Shown piece after piece: positions 15 to 30,778 of a stretch of DNA of 39,305 bases. Made by a program: the position numbers and the translations under genes. Origin of the DNA: a virus (taxonomy: Duplodnaviria; Caudoviricetes); IMG/VR virus record IMGVR_UViG_3300022179_000767, positions 1 through 39,305 of that record. The stretch is one strand, 5' to 3'. The notes under the pieces are model-generated. The model saw only the letters and a list, made by a program, of their open reading frames with translations, had not been told where the DNA came from and ran no database searches. Each line of letters begins with the position of its first letter. Position 1 is the stretch's first letter.

Positions 15-3000
15 ATGAACATGATGTATGGCGGCTACGGCGGTCTTGGCGGGATGTCTTATGGCATGCCGCAGGGGTACGGCTACGGCATGCCTCAGGG
101 CTACGGGATGCCTCAAGGCTACGGCTACGAAATGCCGCGGGTCTACGGTATGCCTCAGGGCTACGGGATGCCTCAGGGATACGGCTATGGGATGCCGCAG
201 GGTTACGGATACGGGCCGCAGGGCTATGGGCAGCCTCAGGCGACCGGCAAGGGCCCGGCGACAGGCGGCGGCGGATACGGTTACCAGCCGCCCACCCAGA
301 GCTATCTAGGCTACCCAGCCGGGCCTCAAGCGACTGGCAAAGGACCGTCCACAACCGGCGGCGGGTACGGCAGCTACACTCCTTCGACCAGCACGCCGAC
401 TGCAACCGGAAAGGGGCCGACCTCCGGGTCGGGCAACTTTCGGGACGGGGGGCGCGTAGCTAAGGCGGTTGGAGGAGCTTCGCTCATCAGCGACACGGAT
501 TTGCAGCGTCTTATGCAGCAAATCGCGATGCCGTCTGGCCCGCATACGGAAGCGCGTCGTTTCTCCGAAAGCAAGAACCCGCATCAAAACCGCATCAACA
601 TTGGCGCGCTGCATGTCGCCAGCGGTCCTATGCGGCCGGCAAAAATGCCCGCGATGCCCAAGTCCGGCGCAGAGCAGGCGTATGATGCGTACAAGCAGGT
701 AAAGAGCGCAGGCTCTGAGGCGCAGAGCTTGTACAACACGCTTTTTGGCAAATCCAACACGCAACAGCGCACGAACCCTAATCAGGTTGTCGTTAGCAAA
801 GAGCGTCCTGAAGCTCCTGCGCCGGCTCCTGCGCCTGCTCCCGAGCCTAAGGGAGACAGTGTCGCCGCGCTTGATGGCGAAATCATCATTCCTGCACGCC
901 GGGGGGGTCTAATCCCGCGTCGTGCGTTCCAATACGGCAGCGACGTGCCGTATGCTGATGAAGAAGTGCCGGGCATCATCCCCAAGGAAGTTCTGGCGAG
1001 CGGCGCTAACGCTCCGCGTGTTCTTCCCAAAAGCGATGAGCAACAGCGCGCACTTGCGCAGCAACTTGCTTCTGGCCAACAGAGCGTTGTCGGATCAATC
1101 TCCAAAGGTCTTGGCGCGGCCAACAACGCCATCAAGGGCGGGAAGCAGCTCTTTGACAGCGCGTCAAAACTGTTCTCCCCCGCTAAGGGCGCGGCAGATG
1201 CGGCCGCCGGGGCTGCGGAAGCCGCGGGCGCGACCAAGGCTGCCCCAGCTCTTGTTGACGCCATTTCTGGCTCTGCTCCGGCTGTCGCCTCCGCCGCTGA
1301 AGCGGCTACTGCGGCAGCGGCTCCTGCGGCTGCGGCTGGCGCTGCGGAGGCTGCTTCCGCCTTCGCGGTACCCGAAATCCTGTCTACGATTGGCACCGCT
1401 GCCGCGGAATTTCTCCCAGCTCTTCTCGCTGTTTTTGCTTCCGACCGCAGGATCAAACACGACGTGAAGCCGATTGGTCGCCTTTACGACGGCCAGATGG
1501 TTTACCGATACCATTTCGGCGACGGCAATTATCAGATCGGTCTGATGGCTCAAGACGCCGAAAAGAATGGGCACAAAGAAGCCGTCCACAATATGGGCGG
1601 TCTCAAGATGCTCGACTACAAGTCAGCGACTGAGGACGCCGCTAAGAAGAAAGGCTTCTATACCGGCGGTCTGGCACGCCCTGCATATCAGACGGAAGGC
1701 TTCGTCGAGCCTGCGAGCTACAGCGAAGAAGCCGATATGCCGGCTGTCGGCGCGACGGCTATGCAGTCGGATGAAGGAATGCCGGGCATCGTCCGCCGCA
1801 TTCCTGCTAACTTGCGTCCGTTCTACGAGCGGGCCTCCGCCGAAACTGGCATCCCGATCCAGTATCTGGCAGCGAAGGATTTTCAGGAGTCTCGGTTTAA
1901 CCCGGGCGCAACTGGTCGCGCAGGCGAGGTAGGTATTGCGCAAGTGATGCCAAGCACGGCGCGTGATCCCGGGTTCGGCGTGTCTCCTGCTTCGCCGCGT
2001 GATCTGTACGACCCTGAAAAGGGCATCATGTTTGGCGCTCAATATCTCGCCGGTCGCGGCAAGGCTGCGGGCGTCACCGATTGGAACGATCCTGCACAAG
2101 TCGCTAAAGCCTACGCCGCATACAATGCCGGCGGCGACCCTAACTATGTCCGAAAACTTTTCGGCCATTTGAACATGCAAGCTCCGGCGACCGGCGGTCT
2201 TGGCGCTGGCAGGGCAACGACTGTCGGCCGTGGCGCGGCTCCTACTCCTCAAGGGGAGCGTCCGTCTGGCTTGATGGCGTATCTGCCTAACAGGTTCGAA
2301 ACCGGCAAGCCGTTCGATAGCGCGACTGACTTCTTCACCAGCAAGCAGTTTGTCGTTCCCGCGATTGCGGCGATTGGTAAGGCTCTTTCGACGCCGACAC
2401 GCAGCCCCGCGTATGCGATTGGCGCTGGCCTTGTTGAGGGCGCTCAGACCTACTCCGGCCTTGAGAAGCAGGCTTCGGATATCGAGCAGACGCGTGAAAC
2501 CACCAAGACGCAGGCGCAGGTCACTGCGGGTCGTGCGCTTGAGAACCTCCGCAATTCGAGCTTTAGATCTGCGGATGGCACCAGCTATGTGGTTACGTCG
2601 GCTGGCACAATGTTGGAAAAAGCGTGGCTTGCTCTGCCTGATAAGGACCGCCCGGCTCTTCTGGGCGAGACAGCCGCGCGCGCGGAGGCTCAAAGAACTG
2701 GCGGTTCATATGGCGAGGGAGATGTCCGCATATCTCCTCTTGGCCAGTCCGGTCCCGCGACGGGTCAGCCCGCGGGCGCGGCTGGCGCGCCGGGTGGTAA
2801 GCCCGCAGCGGCGGCTGCACCCATGTTCCTTCGCGATTTAGGCCGCACGCAGGCTAAGGCGGATCACGACCTTATCCTCATCGATAAGCAAGGGTCGCAG
2901 CCTCTTAAACAGACATCAAACCAAGTTGAAGCAAACGTCGAACAGGGCGCGCGCGAAGCGGCGGACATGGGTCGCCGGCTTAACCAACTCACCTCATACA

Positions 3001-8119: not shown

Positions 8120-8146
8120 TTTCTATTCCTTCAGTTAAGAGTTTAA

Positions 8147-8652
8147 TGCCTTGCCTGCGTCGCCTCGACTTGCCGGGCGTTGCCCCGCCGGGCGTTGCCT
8201 CGCCTGCCTAGCCTCGCCCGGCCTCGCCTCGCATTGCCAGCCCTCGCCTGCCTCGCCCATCAATGCGATGCCCGGCCGATCTGTGCCTAGCGTCTCCTCG
8301 CCTGCGGTGCCAATCCCAGCCCCGACTTGCAATGCCTGCCCATGCCTGCCTTGCCATGCCTCGCCCATCCGTGCCCTTCCTCTCCGGGCGTTGCCTGCGT
8401 TGCTATGCCCTGCGGTGCCTCAACTTGCCGCGCCATTCGATGCCTGCGTCGCCTCACCAAGCCCCGCCAAGCGTTGCCTTCCGATGCCTGCGTTGCCAGT
8501 CCAAGCCTTGCCGCGTCATGCGTTGCCACGCAGCGCCTTGCCTGCCGATCCCAGCCGGGCCAATCCGTGCGACGGATCGCCTTGCCTGCCTTACCTAGCC
8601 TTGCCGATCCGAGCGTAACTCGGCCGCGCCTAGCGATGCCACGCCTGCCGCG
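8147..8652 (-). ncRNA. Putative guide-RNA array: GGC-NN pentamer repeats in 10 units separated by (G/C)GCAGGC
   Basis: Strict 5-nt period; delimiters (gcctgc on +) at 8153, 8202, 8246, 8300, 8344, 8393, 8442, 8486, 8540, 8584, 8643, all spaced 4+5n; begins right after the stop codon at 8653. Confidence 0.85.
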
Positions 8653-9096
8653 TTATGCGACATCGCGCTTCTGGGATATCCCCAGACGGACGGCCTCGAC
8701 ATGCTCAACCAATTCATCCAGCTCTGGAGCCGCAAGATTGGTCAGCATAGTCGATACCTGCGCCAGCGTGATCAGGATGGCCGAATAGTGATCGGGCTTA
8801 TTGACCGTCACCACCTGTGTTTCCTGATATCCGCCGTTCGAACGGATGAAGCTTGGAACACGCACAACTTCTTCATCTGTCCTGACAACATCGACCTTCA
8901 CCCTCTTGATGAGAGCGCGCGCCTCTTGCAGCCGGTAAGCCGCAGCCGCCTCGCTGTCATCCCAAGTGAAGTAAGAGTGCAACGCGGAGTTCGGGTTTCG
9001 CGCCGCATCGACAACGTCCTCGGGGCGCAAGCGCCCCTCAGACATTAGGCTATGCAATTCCTCACGAATTGCACGCATGCGCTCCCTTGAGATCAT
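8653..9096 (-). CDS. Conserved phage protein, accessory to the Cas7-like gene
   Basis: LRPEDVVDAARNPNSALHSYFTWDD..AA..YRL.EAR.LI motif; ATGA overlap with the upstream RAMP gene. Confidence 0.8.
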   Translation of the reverse strand: MISRERMRAIREELHSLMSEGRLRPEDVVDAARNPNSALHSYFTWDDSEAAAAYRLQEARALIKRVKVDVVRTDEEVVRVPSFIRSNGGYQETQVVTVNKPDHYSAILITLAQVSTMLTNLAAPELDELVEHVEAVRLGISQKRDVA

Positions 9097-9728
9097 TCGG
9101 CCTCTCCAATTCTAAAGCAGCCAAACCCAAGGCCCGTGCTCGACTTACTGTCGTGACGGCCTTCACCAATCCCAACCTGCACACCTGCACGCATCAGCAA
9201 GTTGGAAACGTCAGTCAGAGTAAACTGATCTTCGTCGAACTTCACGCGCAGATCGATCCACCACTCGCGCCACATGGGACGCACGCGAATATCAACGACG
9301 CCCGTCGCATTGCGCGTATGCATATCAAGACGCTCCCAGTCGCCGTGTACATGCACCAGAGGCACGCCATCGACGGCGTCAAACGTATCGGCCTCGACAA
9401 AGACCGACAGTTTCGCGAGCGTCATCTTGAACCCGACGAGACGGCAGGCGGAGATCATCGCGTTGCGGAACGCGCCAGCCGGCACGCCAGCCTTGCCATC
9501 AACGCCGATATGCATGGCGTCCCGGCAGTCCTGATCAAAGTCACGCGCCTCGCGGACCTTCTTGCCTTTGCTGGTGCTGCCCGCAGCCATTTTCGCCATC
9601 ATCGCTTGTTTTGCTTTGGCGGAGAAGCGGGCTTGAACGAACGGCGACGTGCCAATCAGGCGAAACGTCGCAGTCTGGATTTTGGGCGCAGATATAGCGA
9701 CAACGCTCGTAGTCTTTTGCATAGCCAT
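9093..9728 (-). CDS. Stand-alone Cas7/RAMP-like RNA-binding protein (~211 aa)
   Basis: RAMP hallmarks: first strand FRLIGTSP, GVPAGAFRNAMISA helix, C-terminal Gly-rich loop GIGEGR...GLGFGCFRI; RBS ggag before the ATG at 9728. Confidence 0.82.
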   Translation of the reverse strand: MAMQKTTSVVAISAPKIQTATFRLIGTSPFVQARFSAKAKQAMMAKMAAGSTSKGKKVREARDFDQDCRDAMHIGVDGKAGVPAGAFRNAMISACRLVGFKMTLAKLSVFVEADTFDAVDGVPLVHVHGDWERLDMHTRNATGVVDIRVRPMWREWWIDLRVKFDEDQFTLTDVSNLLMRAGVQVGIGEGRHDSKSSTGLGFGCFRIGEAE

Positions 9729-9767
9729 TTCTAACTCCATCAACAGATCATAAGTCCGAAACTATTA

Positions 9768-16636: not shown

Positions 16637-16855
16637 TGCGGATAAATGCGGAATAACTGCGGATAAAATCGTCGATTTGCGGATAAAATAGCATAAGTCA
16701 TTGAAAACACTTGCGGAATAGGATTTGCGGAGAATTGCGGATAAATGCGGATAAATTAGCGTAAGCCATTGAAATCATTGGTGCGGATAATTTGCGGAAT
16801 TAAGCGGTACCCCATTAGGGGTACCACCGCGGGGTCGCTTGAACTCCCCCGCGGT
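16637..16855. repeat. Iteron-like repeats and hairpins, candidate replication origin
   Basis: Ten TGCGGA(TAA) copies at 16637-16798 in an AT-rich stretch, followed by two inverted repeats. Confidence 0.75.
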
Positions 16856-19145: not shown

Positions 19146-19176
19146 AGATTAGCATGAAGAAATTGCAGCCGTCAAG
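19146..19176 (-). promoter_or_regulatory. Sigma70-type promoter with internal operator
   Basis: cTTGACG-N18-TAATCT; spacer contains CATGAA-N5-TGCA. Confidence 0.65.
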
Positions 19177-20026
19177 CGGCTGCTAATTCCTCCTGCGAGC
19201 CCTGCTTGCGCAGGAATTCGACGGCTTGGCTCGCCTTGCTGGCGGCGGTCATAAACGCCTGCGGGTCGCTTTTCACCAGCTCAATCCAGTGTTGGATATA
19301 GGCGGCGTGCTGGGTGACGGCGTCGAGACCCAGCTCGGCGCAGAGAAACGCAGCGCCCAGCTCGGCGACCAGTTCCTCGGCTGCATATGCGTTGTCGCCA
19401 AAGCGCTTGCCAAACTGGCGGTTGCAACGGCTCTCCGCTCCGGTCCAATGCACCAGCTCGTGCAGGGCCGTCGCATAGTAGCTCGCGCGGCTATCGAACC
19501 GCTCGAACGCCGGCAGGCGGATCTCGTCGCCTGACGGGCGATAAAAGGCGCGGTCGCCGCCGTGATGGATCACTGCGCCCGTGGCGGCGATGAACGCGTC
19601 ACACGCCGCGTCGCGCTCGTCGGGGTTGATCTCCAGCGGCGCAGGCGCGTCGAGATCGAGGCCCTCGCACTGCTCGACGTTAAACACGGTGAATGATTTC
19701 AAAAACGGGATGGACGCGACATTGCCCGCGTCGTCTGATTTCTCGAACCGCGAGACGAACGTCACGGTTGTCCCTTTCTCGCCCTTACGCACGCTGCCGC
19801 CCAGCTCCTGCGCCTGCTTGAACGTCAGCCATTGGTTCGAGGAATAGCCATGCTCCTGTTGCGTGATCCAAAGCAAAATGACGTTCGCGCCCGAATAAGC
19901 GCGCTTGGTGCGGGCGTTCTTGGGCAGGCCCGCGTTCGTGCTGCTCCACGGCTGCACCCACGGGAGCACGCCCGTCTCCATGGCGGCGAGGATGCGGTCG
20001 GCGACTTCTTTCTGCAGGTTGCGCAT
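19172..20026 (-). CDS. ardC: ArdC-family antirestriction protein (ssDNA-binding domain plus zincin-like domain)
   Basis: PWVQPW, YSGAN, WLTFKQA...GG.VRKGEKG, VFNVEQ, HELVHWTG and YAAEELVAELGAAFL motifs. Confidence 0.95.
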   Translation of the reverse strand: MRNLQKEVADRILAAMETGVLPWVQPWSSTNAGLPKNARTKRAYSGANVILLWITQQEHGYSSNQWLTFKQAQELGGSVRKGEKGTTVTFVSRFEKSDDAGNVASIPFLKSFTVFNVEQCEGLDLDAPAPLEINPDERDAACDAFIAATGAVIHHGGDRAFYRPSGDEIRLPAFERFDSRASYYATALHELVHWTGAESRCNRQFGKRFGDNAYAAEELVAELGAAFLCAELGLDAVTQHAAYIQHWIELVKSDPQAFMTAASKASQAVEFLRKQGSQEELAAA

Positions 20027-20066
20027 GGGTAACTCCATCTACAGCTAAGGTTGCGATTACCAGATC

Positions 20067-26734: not shown

Positions 26735-29700
26735 ATGGCTGACGACGCTCCGCAGCAACAAGACGATGGCGGCTTCTGGTCGTCGTTAGGCAAGATGGTC
26801 TCTGAGGCGTATCAGGCGACAAATCCTGAGAACATGTACGCCAATGCGTACAAGCTTTATGAGACCAGCGGCTTCACGCCTGAACAGGCGGCGGAATATG
26901 CGCAGCGTCATCAGGACAGCGTGGCCGCGAAGATGGGCCGCACGCGCATGCTCGCTAACGCGGTTGGTTATTTAACGCCGGCGACTGCGCCTGCAATGCT
27001 GTTGAACGATGCGTACACGGCCGCCGAGTCTGGCGACCCGCGCAAGATTGCTGAGACAGGCGCTTTCTTTGGAGCTCCGCGTGCGATTGGTCAGGCGATT
27101 GATGCCGCTGCGCCGCATGTAAAGCGCGCGTATGAAGGCACGAAGAGCGCGTTTGGGTATGCAGGCGGCGGCGACGTAGACCCTGTTTCTCTTGCGCGTC
27201 GCACGCTGTCTGAGCCGCGTGTGATGCGCGAGAAGCGCAAGGCTGGAGGCACCCAGACGGCTCCTGCCGAACCGCCGACTGCTTACTTTGAGGTTGCGCC
27301 CGGTGAGAAGTGGGATGCTGACCTGAAGCAGCGGTGGGAGGCGCTTCACCCGCAGGCAAAGTCCGCTGTCTCTAATAAAATGATCGGCGAGTTCTTGAGC
27401 CGGTGGCAGCGCCAGACTGGCATCAACGGCGAAGTGCGGCCGGGTCTTGGCGGCTTTGAAGGTTATTCCAATCCGAATTACACGTTCCAGCCTTACGATC
27501 CCAAGCACATCGTGCCGTCGTTGAATGGTCTTGGTGAGCTGTTCCATCAAGACGCGATGATGGGCGCGCATGCGCAGCCGTTTGAGGGCAGTTTCCCAAC
27601 CGGCGTCATTCGTGTTCAGTTGCCAAAGAACTCGTCGCCTGACGAAATCCATGATGTCTACAAGACGTTGCATGCGCAGGGGCTTGCTGAAGGCCACTCG
27701 ACGGATATCGGCAACGGCACGATGGATATCATTGGCGGCGATGGGAAGGGCGAGACGATTAAGCTCGCTAAGGCCATCGATGCTGCTCTTGGCGGCAAGT
27801 ACGACGTAGCGTCTTATCCGACTAACATTGCATTTCCTTCGAAGGGGGAAGCCTATGGCGTATCTGGGACACAGGCCGGCAAATCACCCGGAGCATCCAC
27901 ACAAGAAACCGACCCTCGTCTTCAGGCCGAGTCACTCTCCCGGCTCAAAGAGCTCGTCGAAGAAGCCCACCGCCAAGGCGCAGGGCATGAAGGGGAAGTA
28001 TCCTTCGGGGACACGTTAAGCCCGGGCGAGGAACATCCTGACACGGTGTCTGCGGCGCTTCCTACGACGGTTAAAGAATACAAAGGGCCGCCGCTGCCGG
28101 GGACGACAAGAACTGACATCTCGCCAAGCCTGCATTCGGACGAGAACCGCAAGAAGATTGCGCTGCGCATGTATGAGCAGCATCCTGCGATGTGGTCGCC
28201 GGGCGAAGAAGGCCAGACGCCATCGCCTGCGGAAGCAGAGCGCAGGCTGACAGACTTTCATGTGAAAAATCTTCTTGCTCTGTGGGATCGCACGCCGCCC
28301 GAGCAGCGCAAGACAAGCCGCTTTTGGTATCGCGCGGCGCATGCTCTTGGCAATCAATATGCGGACGAGCACAATCTTGAGCCGCGGGCCGCGCACGGCA
28401 TGATGGCTGTTCTGTCGCCGCAAACGCCTTGGGACAAGAACGTTACTCTCGCCGAGCGTGTGATGGATGCGATGACGCATCATCAAGACACGCCGTGGAC
28501 AAGAGGCATGTCTGAAGTTGCGCGCTCTGGCGGCGACAAAGGCAACGGACTTCCTGAGATTAAAACAACTAAGAATGTTCAGGGCGTGAATTGGTCGGAT
28601 CTCGAAGGAAAATCGCTGCGCGATGTTCTCGCCGAGGAGAACGGCGAAAAGAAAGCTTCGATGTGGATACGCGCCTTTGATGAAGCGCACAATCCGCGCG
28701 AGTATCAAGCCGTAAGCCCGACCGGCGAATTTCTTGGCCCAATGCAGAACAAGACCGGCACGGCCATCGACACCGCGTCTTGGAACAGCTATTTGCCGAT
28801 TGAAAAAGCGGTTAAAATTTATCGTGATCCAAGCCTTGAAAACATCAACAGGCAAATCGGGAACAATCACAAGGTTCGTGAGTTCTATAACGTAATCACG
28901 AACCCGAACGATCCGAACGGCGTTGTGATTGACACGCACGCCGTCGCTGCCGGTCAGATGCTGCCGCATGGTTCGAGCGCAAAGGCTGTTCACCAAAACT
29001 TTGGAACGACGCCGACTTCTCTCGCCAAGGAGCAGCTTGCCCGCAAGGGAGACCCATGGATTGAAGGTCTCGACCCGTCGAAGAAGACGGGCCAGACGGG
29101 CGCGACGGGCGATTATCCATTGCACGCCGAGGCTGTTCGTCAGGCTGCGATGATGCGCGGCGTGCATCCGTCTGAAATGCAGTCTGTGACGTGGGAGGCG
29201 GTTCGCACGCTATTCCGCAACAAGTCGCAGCCAATGCAGCGTGGCGCGCGGGATATTTGGAAGCGGTATGCCACTGGCGAGCTGACACATCCGCAGGCGA
29301 TTGACGCTCTTGTCCAATTGAATGGCGGCTTCAACCGTCCTGTCTGGGGCGAGCAGGCGGGCCAAGGGCTTGGTCAGGCGAGGACGGGATCATATCAGCG
29401 CCCGACCGACGTGACGCCTGATACCGCTGCTCTTCCGCGCATGCGCGCGACGCAAGACGACGATGAATTTGCAGAAGGCGGAACAGTCCAAAAAAAAAAT
29501 TCTTCGCTCCGCGCCCCTGAGTTATGGCCGTCAGCGCAGCGAATAAAAGCAGGAGAAGGCTCTCGCGAAGAGCACGCCGATTTGGTGAACCGCCTAAAGC
29601 CTGTTCGCCCGTATGCGGAGCCTGTTCCTCCTGCGACGGACGCCGAGGTTTACGATGCTTTGGACAAAGGCAAAAAGCCAAATGCTTTTGTCCCGCGTCA

Positions 29701-30778
29701 GCTTAAAGACGGGACGCCTGTAGCTCTTCGCTTAGACATCCCTGCCTATGAAGACAAAAACACATGGGTTGTGGCGGTCCACCACCCTAAACCTAATTTC
29801 ACGGCCGGCGACGTTATTGGTTACGACAGCGTCGCGCATATCGATAACCCCAAGTTTGGGGTTCATCCCGTGGGCGCGTTGAATATTGCTTCTGGAAAGC
29901 CAAAATCTACAATTGCCACCGTTCATGGAAACTGGAGAAGCACCAATCCAGAATATGCTTATGAGATGGCGAAGCAGTATCACAATGACCCTGAATGGCG
30001 TCAGGTTGGAATGGACCCAGAGCGCCATTCCTATTTCTATGATCGCGAGACGCAACAGCCTGTAATTTCTGCCGACGAGGCATTGCATATTGGCCCGCTC
30101 GTCTATGCGAAGAACCCAGTTTACGACGACCCTGAGAAATATAAGTTTGCTGACGGCGGAGAGGTTGATCGGTTTATTCCGCGTGAAGATCCGCGGTATC
30201 AACGCAATCTTTCTAAGTTTCATGGCAAGACGCCAAAGGAAATTAAAGAGGCACGCTGGTATCATGGAACTCAAAGAGATTTCCAAACATTTCGTCCAAA
30301 TTCAGAAGGAATTATTTTCTTAACGAGAAACCCCAAGTTTGCTGATGATTATAATTTTAAAGGCGGCATTGGTCAGGATTTCGATGAAAAAAACAAAGTT
30401 TGGCTTCCGCGAGAAGGGTCAGACATACAGCCAAATACAATGCCTGTTCATGTCCGAGCCGAAAAACCGTTTGACTACGAGAACCCACGTCATTTGAACA
30501 AACTTGTTCAGGAGCTAGGCCCGGATCTTATTATGGACCCGTATCTGCACACTTTCGTAGACGAGGTACGTCAAGGACATTGGGGCGCTATTGAAAGCCC
30601 GCCTATTCAAAGTGCTATTAAAGCGATGGGACATGACTCATTCTTCGTTAAAGAAAACGGAGAAAAAAATCTTGGCGTCTACGACCCGTCGCAAATAAAG
30701 TCCGCTACCGGCAACAACGGAAACTTTGACCGCGCCGAGGATGACATCACCAAGGAGCGTGGAGGCACTGTTGACTGA
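26735..30778 (+). CDS. Large polyvalent (multidomain) protein with C-terminal ADP-ribosyltransferase-like domain
   Basis: C-terminal WYHGT...IFLT.NP.FA..Y...GHDS...DPSQIKSATGNNGNFD; central WY....AVLSPQ..W..N...KV..FY...IDTHA...MQ.VTW domain. Confidence 0.78.
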   Translation: MADDAPQQQDDGGFWSSLGKMVSEAYQATNPENMYANAYKLYETSGFTPEQAAEYAQRHQDSVAAKMGRTRMLANAVGYLTPATAPAMLLNDAYTAAESGDPRKIAETGAFFGAPRAIGQAIDAAAPHVKRAYEGTKSAFGYAGGGDVDPVSLARRTLSEPRVMREKRKAGGTQTAPAEPPTAYFEVAPGEKWDADLKQRWEALHPQAKSAVSNKMIGEFLSRWQRQTGINGEVRPGLGGFEGYSNPNYTFQPYDPKHIVPSLNGLGELFHQDAMMGAHAQPFEGSFPTGVIRVQLPKNSSPDEIHDVYKTLHAQGLAEGHSTDIGNGTMDIIGGDGKGETIKLAKAIDAALGGKYDVASYPTNIAFPSKGEAYGVSGTQAGKSPGASTQETDPRLQAESLSRLKELVEEAHRQGAGHEGEVSFGDTLSPGEEHPDTVSAALPTTVKEYKGPPLPGTTRTDISPSLHSDENRKKIALRMYEQHPAMWSPGEEGQTPSPAEAERRLTDFHVKNLLALWDRTPPEQRKTSRFWYRAAHALGNQYADEHNLEPRAAHGMMAVLSPQTPWDKNVTLAERVMDAMTHHQDTPWTRGMSEVARSGGDKGNGLPEIKTTKNVQGVNWSDLEGKSLRDVLAEENGEKKASMWIRAFDEAHNPREYQAVSPTGEFLGPMQNKTGTAIDTASWNSYLPIEKAVKIYRDPSLENINRQIGNNHKVREFYNVITNPNDPNGVVIDTHAVAAGQMLPHGSSAKAVHQNFGTTPTSLAKEQLARKGDPWIEGLDPSKKTGQTGATGDYPLHAEAVRQAAMMRGVHPSEMQSVTWEAVRTLFRNKSQPMQRGARDIWKRYATGELTHPQAIDALVQLNGGFNRPVWGEQAGQGLGQARTGSYQRPTDVTPDTAALPRMRATQDDDEFAEGGTVQKKNSSLRAPELWPSAQRIKAGEGSREEHADLVNRLKPVRPYAEPVPPATDAEVYDALDKGKKPNAFVPRQLKDGTPVALRLDIPAYEDKNTWVVAVHHPKPNFTAGDVIGYDSVAHIDNPKFGVHPVGALNIASGKPKSTIATVHGNWRSTNPEYAYEMAKQYHNDPEWRQVGMDPERHSYFYDRETQQPVISADEALHIGPLVYAKNPVYDDPEKYKFADGGEVDRFIPREDPRYQRNLSKFHGKTPKEIKEARWYHGTQRDFQTFRPNSEGIIFLTRNPKFADDYNFKGGIGQDFDEKNKVWLPREGSDIQPNTMPVHVRAEKPFDYENPRHLNKLVQELGPDLIMDPYLHTFVDEVRQGHWGAIESPPIQSAIKAMGHDSFFVKENGEKNLGVYDPSQIKSATGNNGNFDRAEDDITKERGGTVD

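What the first reader, a model, noticed from the sequence alone, without database searches (positions are those of the whole stretch)
8147..8652. Array has two-level structure: 5-nt period, punctuated into 10 units by a 4-nt phase break
On the minus strand the sequence parses without gaps as triplet (mostly GGC; also CGC, GGA, TGC) plus a free dinucleotide. Eleven (G/C)GC-A-GGC delimiters give unit lengths 59, 44, 54, 44, 49, 49, 44, 54, 44, 49 nt in transcription order, all 4+5n. The NN strings all differ: U1 GT AT TA GC CG TA TC TC AA TA AA; U2 AA GA GT AC TT CC TG TC; U3 AA GC GT AA AT GC AA TT CT AA; U4 AT AA AA TT GG TT GA GA; U5 AT AT GC AA GA AC AG AT AA; U6 AA CC GA AG AC TG GA AT AA; U7 AT CA AT AA GG TG TT AC; U8 GA GA TA AC TC CG AT AT TG GA; U9 GA CT AA GA GA CG GA TA; U10 GA AA CC GG AA CC AA GA GA. 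A decaying microsatellite would not keep its variation confined to two positions with regular delimiters. Inference: delimiters are processing or filament-boundary sites, yielding ten guides of 16-22 informative nt.
Basis: partly seen in the sequence, partly recalled or inferred. Interest (0 to 1): 0.92.

Follow-up and report, generated by a model that had tools for sequence, protein, structure and literature searches.

The report
Phage VIPR staggered guide array
This freshwater phage carries a VIPR system (a CRISPR-related RNA-guided DNA silencer described in 2026): ten abutting repeat units sit behind a Cas7-like gene and likely act as separate guides, and the first unit spells the catalytic motif of serine integrase genes, so it likely blocks rival integrating elements; it is a clear new example of a known kind.

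Summary
The parse is real. All ten unit lengths and NN strings check out; one of 12 motif matches is an in-phase false delimiter, and the triplets vary more than claimed. The array follows a two-gene operon whose first gene (9093-9743) encodes a Vipr protein: same PHROG as SUSP1 Vipr, SUSP1 Vipr as its only PDB sequence hit, and a predicted RAMP fold. This is a VIPR system, and the 4-nt phase break corresponds to the published 'staggered vrRNA array' with 1-nt overlap (figure legend only). In 97 related arrays, 613 of 625 phase shifts are this -1 step. A phage with an identical Vipr has gained, lost and reordered whole units. Under the published 1-nt-skip rule, U1 spells the large serine recombinase motif: 116 of 120 viral matches are in frame in such genes, best 20 of 22. 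An unrelated guide in another phage spells the same motif. No target was found for U2-U10, and RNA ends were not testable. The scan reported VIPR staggered arrays aimed at recombinases before, on other DNA (e1-5869160). New member of a known kind; interest 0.38.

The parts
9093..9743 (-). vipr gene, RAMP/Cas7-like protein of 216 aa (most close homologues are 211 aa, so the start may lie a few codons later)
   Evidence: phrog_4652 shared with SUSP1 Vipr; hhalign 94.6%, E 6.6e-8; only PDB sequence hit is SUSP1 Vipr 36pp; fold matches Cmr/Csm3 RAMPs
8653..9096 (-). candidate vap accessory gene, 147 aa, overlapping the vipr stop by 4 nt; function unknown
   Evidence: homologue downstream of vipr in 49 of 73 loci with room; phrog_15946, not the SUSP1 vap1 family; model too poor to use
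8646..8649 (-). first 4-nt delimiter (GGCA), 3 nt after the vap stop codon
8587..8645 (-). U1, 11 NN; decodes by the 1-nt-skip rule to the large serine recombinase catalytic motif
8543..8586 (-). U2, 8 NN; shared with L018; target not found
8489..8542 (-). U3, 10 NN; 45 nt of it missing in related contigs; target not found
8445..8488 (-). U4, 8 NN; shared with L018, in swapped order with U5
8396..8444 (-). U5, 9 NN; NN identical in L018 despite 3 triplet changes; target not found
8347..8395 (-). U6, 9 NN; absent from L018
8303..8346 (-). U7, 8 NN; absent from L018; holds the in-phase false delimiter at 8340
8249..8302 (-). U8, 10 NN; shared with L018 with 2 NN changes; no exact viral match
8205..8248 (-). 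U9, 8 NN; identical in L018
8156..8204 (-). U10, 9 NN; replaced by other sequence in related contigs
8146..8155 (-). two trailing pentamers after the last delimiter; no consensus terminator follows

Best explanation
This is a VIPR locus (vipr, candidate vap, staggered array) in which one transcript is likely cut, or read by register, at each xGCA|GGC step into ten guides that Vipr is predicted to coat, one subunit per pentamer, and that likely bind double-stranded DNA by the 1-nt-skip code to silence rival mobile elements, with U1 likely aimed at a serine integrase gene. Shown here: array anatomy, Vipr homology and predicted fold, clade-wide conservation of the -1 step, whole-unit turnover, and U1's match to the recombinase motif. 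Taken from the SUSP1 papers and inferred for this locus: filament assembly, gapped pairing, transcriptional silencing. Inferred and untested: transcription of the array, cleavage at the delimiter, the enzyme that does it, the role of the vap gene, and the identity of the targeted element.
For: Vipr homology. SUSP1 thumb R138 and G-loop R179 align to invariant R155 and R196. Arrays lie on the vipr strand in 77 of 81 viral loci and 32 of 36 genome loci. 613 of 625 phase shifts in 97 distinct arrays are 4-nt, at least 561 of them NGCA|GG. 393 of 464 distinct units have 7-12 NN; entropies are 0.57, 0.52, 1.12, 1.89, 1.95 bits. L018, with a 100% identical Vipr, shares six units, has a diverged U10, swaps U4 and U5, lacks U3, U6 and U7, and has seven other full units. 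U1: 116 of 120 returned viral matches (about 600 estimated) are in frame in serine recombinases; so are 29 of 29 metagenome and 6 of 6 genome matches; 6 of 401 genomes match, against 0 of 401 for the reversed pattern. An unrelated L073 guide scores 26.5 on the motif profile; the next unrelated string scores 10.0 and shuffled sets reach at most 15.9. No unit matches the phage itself above 78%. SUSP1 VIPR silences a satellite recombinase (10.64898/2026.10.15.759431).
Against: No RNA evidence: the one RNA run gave a single contig outside the array. U1 has no perfect match: 0 hits for all 22 bases in metagenomes, best 20 of 22, with the misses at the 3' end where SUSP1 pairing begins. U2, U3 and U5 gave chance-level, non-converging hits (5, 35, 26) and U8 none. 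Across 372 units, 1-nt-skip hits in the related loci (49) did not exceed skip 0 (38), skip 2 (52) or shuffles (42, 50, 62). Only 54 of 90 triplets are GGY, and SUSP1 H17 and W178 align to A38 and G195. The link of NN to sense codon positions 1-2 is weak (r 0.54, p 0.03, best of six, uncorrected).
Confidence: 0.85

Rival explanations
1. It is a VIPR system, but the array stays one long RNA. The -1 step only breaks the Vipr filament into independent modules and serves as the microhomology for unit exchange; there is no cleavage.
For: No per-unit tail, hairpin or ribozyme: the array folds no better than shuffles (z -1.35) and Rfam finds nothing. No processing nuclease was recognised beside it. 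Whole-unit loss and replacement occur near delimiters.
Against: The published legend draws staggered arrays as processed vrRNAs. RAMPs such as Cas6 and Csm3 cut RNA (established knowledge), so Vipr could process its own precursor. Targeting would be the same under both readings.
Confidence: 0.1
2. The guides pair with RNA (mRNA knock-down, type III-like) rather than DNA.
For: The best fold matches are type III Cmr/Csm subunits. SUSP1 Vipr can pair with ssRNA, though incompletely.
Against: U1 and the L073 guide have the same sense as the recombinase mRNA, so they could pair only with the template DNA strand or an antisense RNA.
Confidence: 0.03
3. A decaying GC-rich minisatellite, or a low-complexity coding region, with no guide role.
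For: 38 of 90 triplets depart from GGC. ORFs of 77-155 aa overlap it on both strands. Nine of ten units have no target found.
Against: Phase shifts are 613 of 625 of one kind. The array is tied to a RAMP gene. Unit lengths of 44, 49 and 59 nt would shift a reading frame when units are gained or lost. Two unrelated guides spell one catalytic motif.
Confidence: 0.02

Closest known systems
VIPR systems with staggered vrRNA arrays (bioRxiv 10.64898/2026.04.26.720920, main text and fig. S18 legend)
   Same: Phage-encoded vipr plus one accessory gene; GGY/NN pentamers; successive guides overlapping by 1 nt, which is the same geometry as a 4-nt block followed by GGC.
   Different: The figure, its type assignment and its boundary sequence could not be seen, so the VIPR type is not assigned. 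The paper's text gives no targets or RNA data for staggered arrays. Units here have 8-11 NN; the paper gives 9-16 repeats.
Type II VIPR of Escherichia phage SUSP1 (10.64898/2026.04.26.720920, .720927, 2026.10.15.759431)
   Same: Homologous Vipr (23% over 184 aa; same PHROG); gene order vipr, vap, array; one guide aimed at a recombinase catalytic region.
   Different: SUSP1 has four separate ~100-nt guides with GGT-rich repeats, structured 3' tails and spacers between them. Here ten GGC-rich units abut with no tails, and the accessory gene is of another family.
Class 1 CRISPR-Cas RAMP complexes (Csm3, Cmr, Cas7)
   Same: RAMP fold (Z 10.6, rmsd 3.4, 150 aligned to 6s6b_I); repeat array of exchangeable guides.
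   Different: No CRISPR repeat-spacer array; no cas gene among the 32 ORFs scanned by Pfam; information is stored in dinucleotides, not contiguous spacers.

Membership tests
VIPR | Vipr protein: single-RRM RAMP with thumb and C-terminal G-loop | tested here: met
VIPR | Minimal locus of vipr plus accessory gene in a virus, without CRISPR array or cas genes | tested here: met
   G000 is a 68% complete virus record, so the rest of the genome is unseen
VIPR | Adjacent pentamer repeats with conserved GGY (or related consensus) and variable NN | tested here: met
   54 of 90 triplets strictly GGY, G at the second position in 85 of 90
VIPR | NN code matches natural targets by the 1-nt-skip rule, skip on the wobble base | tested here: inconclusive
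   met at motif level for U1 and an L073 guide; not found for U2, U3, U5, U8; no class-wide excess in local loci
VIPR | No self-target in its own contig at 80% or more | tested here: met
   best self match 78% over ten units
VIPR | vrRNA expressed and bound by Vipr; transcriptional silencing | not testable with these tools
   only assembled contigs available
VIPR staggered-array architecture | Successive guides overlap by 1 nt | tested here: met
   ten of ten boundaries in the window, 613 of 625 in relatives
VIPR staggered-array architecture | Processed vrRNA ends at the boundaries | not testable with these tools
   needs small-RNA-seq
Type II VIPR (SUSP1-like) | Separate guides each with a structured 3' tail, and vap1 | tested here: not met
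   units abut; accessory gene unrelated to SUSP1 vap1 by BLASTP and PHROG
CRISPR-Cas class 1 | Direct repeats with unique contiguous spacers and a multi-gene cas operon | tested here: not met

The most novel reading that the evidence does not exclude
In this clade Vipr itself matures its guides by cutting where its filament loses register at xGCA|GGC, so one small RAMP is both processor and effector. Lake populations of this phage exchange whole units at the same sites, giving a CRISPR-like, updatable memory without Cas1, part of which is aimed at the near-invariant catalytic codons of large serine integrases and so at a whole class of integrating rivals.
Probability: 0.3. Interest if true: 0.72.

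Novelty: new member of a known kind. Interest (0 to 1): 0.38.

Why it matters
The system and the staggered layout are already described, so this is not a discovery of kind. It is a good test case for two points left open in the VIPR papers as read here: how tail-less staggered guides are matured, and how guides are gained and lost. The locus has ten clean boundaries and near-identical relatives with different arrays. It also has one guide with a predictable target class, and a second phage has reached that class with a different guide. If confirmed, it would give a compact natural multiplex format (about 50 nt per guide) for a 216-aa programmable repressor.

Tried and rejected
Target scans: U1 with all 22 bases in metagenomes, 0 hits. 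U8 with two degenerate positions in viral contigs, 0. 16-base patterns for U5 (26 hits, 22 distinct sites), U2 (5) and U3 (35 hits, 20 distinct sites) fell in mixed frames and unrelated genes; the chance level is about 20, estimated from the 4 of 120 non-recombinase U1 hits. U2-U10 against the 35 recombinase loci were no better than shuffles, so no single element hit by several guides was found. 362 NN strings against recombinase genes gave 24 hits, shuffles 21-28 (first and last units were not in that set). Guides against 109 vipr genes gave 8 hits, shuffles 2-8. A first motif-bound parser broke at variant delimiters and was replaced. Triplet versus NN substitution over 53 unit pairs (0.148 vs 0.082 per site) is biased by selecting pairs on NN identity and is not used. 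The vap model (pLDDT 50.5), Atlas, PADLOC and NCBIfam gave no function. No promoter or terminator excess over shuffles. RNA run X20 gave one contig at 7847-8152 only, which says nothing on the array. No complex prediction was run.

Full report
Observation. The minus strand from 8645 to 8156 parses without gaps into ten units of the stated lengths, each a run of triplet+NN pentamers closed by GGCA or CGCA; all ten NN strings are correct. The motif occurs 12 times, but the copy at 8340 is in phase inside U7. Entropy per position is 1.09, 0.39, 1.02, 1.86 and 1.85 bits over 90 blocks, so variation is concentrated in NN but not confined to it. Lag-5 autocorrelation is 0.49 against at most 0.37 in 1000 shuffles. 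No second array exists in the window.

Context. The window is a 39.3-kb virus record, 68% complete, with terminase, portal, primase-helicase, GcrA-like and GapR-like genes. The last two suggest an alphaproteobacterial host (inference). The nine runs holding half or more of its words are freshwater metagenomes, six of them possible sources. The array begins 3 nt after the stop of a 147-aa gene (8653-9096) that overlaps a 216-aa gene (9093-9743) by 4 nt.

The 216-aa protein is a Vipr. I recalled VIPR from memory on seeing the repeat and then tested it. SUSP1 AVU07_agp039, flanked by pentamer tracts, and this protein both hit phrog_4652 (E 1e-96 and 2e-14). They align at 23% over 184 aa and by profile at 94.6%. 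A profile of 65 homologues (64 picked from the 120 listed of 6583) has one PDB sequence hit, 'SUSP1 Vipr protein' (E 3.5e-5). The model (pLDDT 81.6) matches CRISPR RAMPs: best Z 10.6, rmsd 3.4, 150 aligned, and the top 26 rows are all CRISPR effector chains (Foldseek agrees). SUSP1 R138 and R179 align to invariant R155 and R196; H17 and W178 are not kept. The 147-aa gene follows vipr in 49 of 73 loci with room but is not of the SUSP1 vap1 family; its function is unknown.

The phase break is a clade-wide feature. I parsed 81 viral loci (the best 80 of 533 relatives, plus L014) with a parser that knows no delimiter motif. Arrays lay on the vipr strand in 77 of 81; three of the four misses end shortly after vipr. 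In 97 distinct arrays, 613 of 625 shifts were 4-nt blocks, at least 561 reading NGCA|GG. In genome contigs 32 of 36 loci had arrays and 218 of 230 shifts were 4-nt. Of 464 distinct internal units, 393 have 7-12 NN; the last NN is AA in 42% of 411. A 4-nt block followed by GGC is the same thing as two pentamer registers sharing one base, which is how the fig. S18 legend of 10.64898/2026.04.26.720920 describes staggered vrRNA arrays.

Turnover. L019 has the same array as the window and is not independent. L018 has an identical Vipr protein but 14 units and two stubs. It shares U1 (shorter), U2, U4, U5, U8 and U9, has a diverged U10, swaps U4 and U5, lacks U3, U6 and U7, and has seven other full units. 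In the six shared units there are 9 triplet changes in 153 sites and 3 NN changes in 102, so NN is not mutating faster within a unit. Contigs of other runs show a 45-nt skip removing most of U3 (two runs), replacement of the U6-U7 stretch (one run) and of U10 (three runs). Several loose ends fall at delimiters, others inside units.

Targets. By the published 1-nt-skip rule, U1 reads V-[IM]-Y-A-R-Y-S-S, which I recognised from memory as the serine recombinase catalytic motif before searching. The 18-base pattern gave one viral hit, at codon 3 of a Resolvase/Recombinase/Zn-ribbon gene, 20 of 22 bases matched. The 16-base pattern gave 120 returned hits of about 600; 116 of 120 are in frame in such genes. 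All 29 metagenome hits and all 6 hits in 401 genomes of the class of G003 (record title Aestuariivirga; reversed control 0 of 401) are too. This shows that U1 spells a conserved motif, not which element it targets; none matches all 22 bases. The independent test is L073 (Vipr 62% identical). Its guide differs from U1 at two NN inside the motif and continues through columns that were not in my pattern, matching one that is invariant in 123 of 123 genes and one at 120 of 123. It scores 26.5 on the motif profile, the next unrelated string of 536 scores 10.0, and 20 shuffled sets peak at 9.0-15.9. U1 and its L018 form score high by construction. Against this: U2, U3, U5 and U8 gave chance-level or no hits, five units were not scanned publicly, and local searches show no class-wide excess for the 1-nt skip. 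No unit matches its own genome above 78%.

Mechanism. Most likely vipr, vap and the array are co-transcribed, the array RNA is divided at each -1 step, Vipr coats each unit, and the complexes bind DNA of rival elements and repress them. U1 has the sense of the recombinase mRNA, which points to DNA rather than mRNA as the partner. Filament assembly and silencing come from SUSP1 work; cleavage, its enzyme and the vap role are inference. An uncut long RNA with filament boundaries is the main rival. The array has no excess structure (z -1.35) and no Rfam match.

Literature seen. 10.64898/2026.04.26.720920: whole text with legends and a term search of its supplement PDF; figures, tables and data S1-S4 were not seen and may assign this clade a type and list its targets. 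10.64898/2026.04.26.720927: parts 1-2 of 6. 10.64898/2026.10.15.759431: part 1 of 8 and passages; it shows SUSP1 VIPR silencing a satellite recombinase; its supplements are closed. 10.64898/2026.10.21.760802: passages. Two searches found these four VIPR papers; the word 'staggered' occurs in the first and not in the last two. Earlier scan notes report VIPR staggered arrays with recombinase-directed units on another genome.

Verdict. Observation confirmed; interpretation largely right but untested at RNA level; a new member of a known kind, with useful evidence on unit turnover and convergent targeting. Interest 0.38.

Noticed in passing
window 16637-16800 (+): About eleven copies of a TGCGGA(T/A/G)AA-type 10-mer in an intergenic gap after the replication genes, followed by a short GC-rich inverted repeat near 16810-16855; looks like an iteron-type origin or protein-binding array.
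   Followed up: no
L073:9532-9826 (last unit of the upstream array): A guide unrelated to U1 that decodes to the same serine recombinase motif and beyond it.
   Followed up: yes
L058 array; L018 vipr gene: One L058 unit matches the antisense strand of vipr genes at 16 of 18 bases in wobble register (21 sites), a possible anti-VIPR guide; as a class such hits did not exceed shuffles.
   Followed up: partly
L018 array; also other relatives: Stub units of 0-3 NN between two delimiters (30 of 464 units), probably deletion scars.
   Followed up: partly
window 26735-30778 (+) and 19172-20038 (-): A 1347-aa polyvalent-type protein with DUF7178 and ART-PolyVal domains, and an ArdC-like anti-restriction protein.
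   Followed up: no
window 66-240 (+): In-frame 18-nt repeats near the start of the 1197-aa lytic transglycosylase protein.
   Followed up: no
phage collection hits H1-H33: Vipr homologues at 67% in cyanophage Cy-LDV1 and about 30% in 32 Mycobacterium and Gordonia phage records, all annotated as hypothetical proteins.
   Followed up: no
L094: A Vipr relative (57%) with full flanks but no pentamer array on its strand.
   Followed up: no
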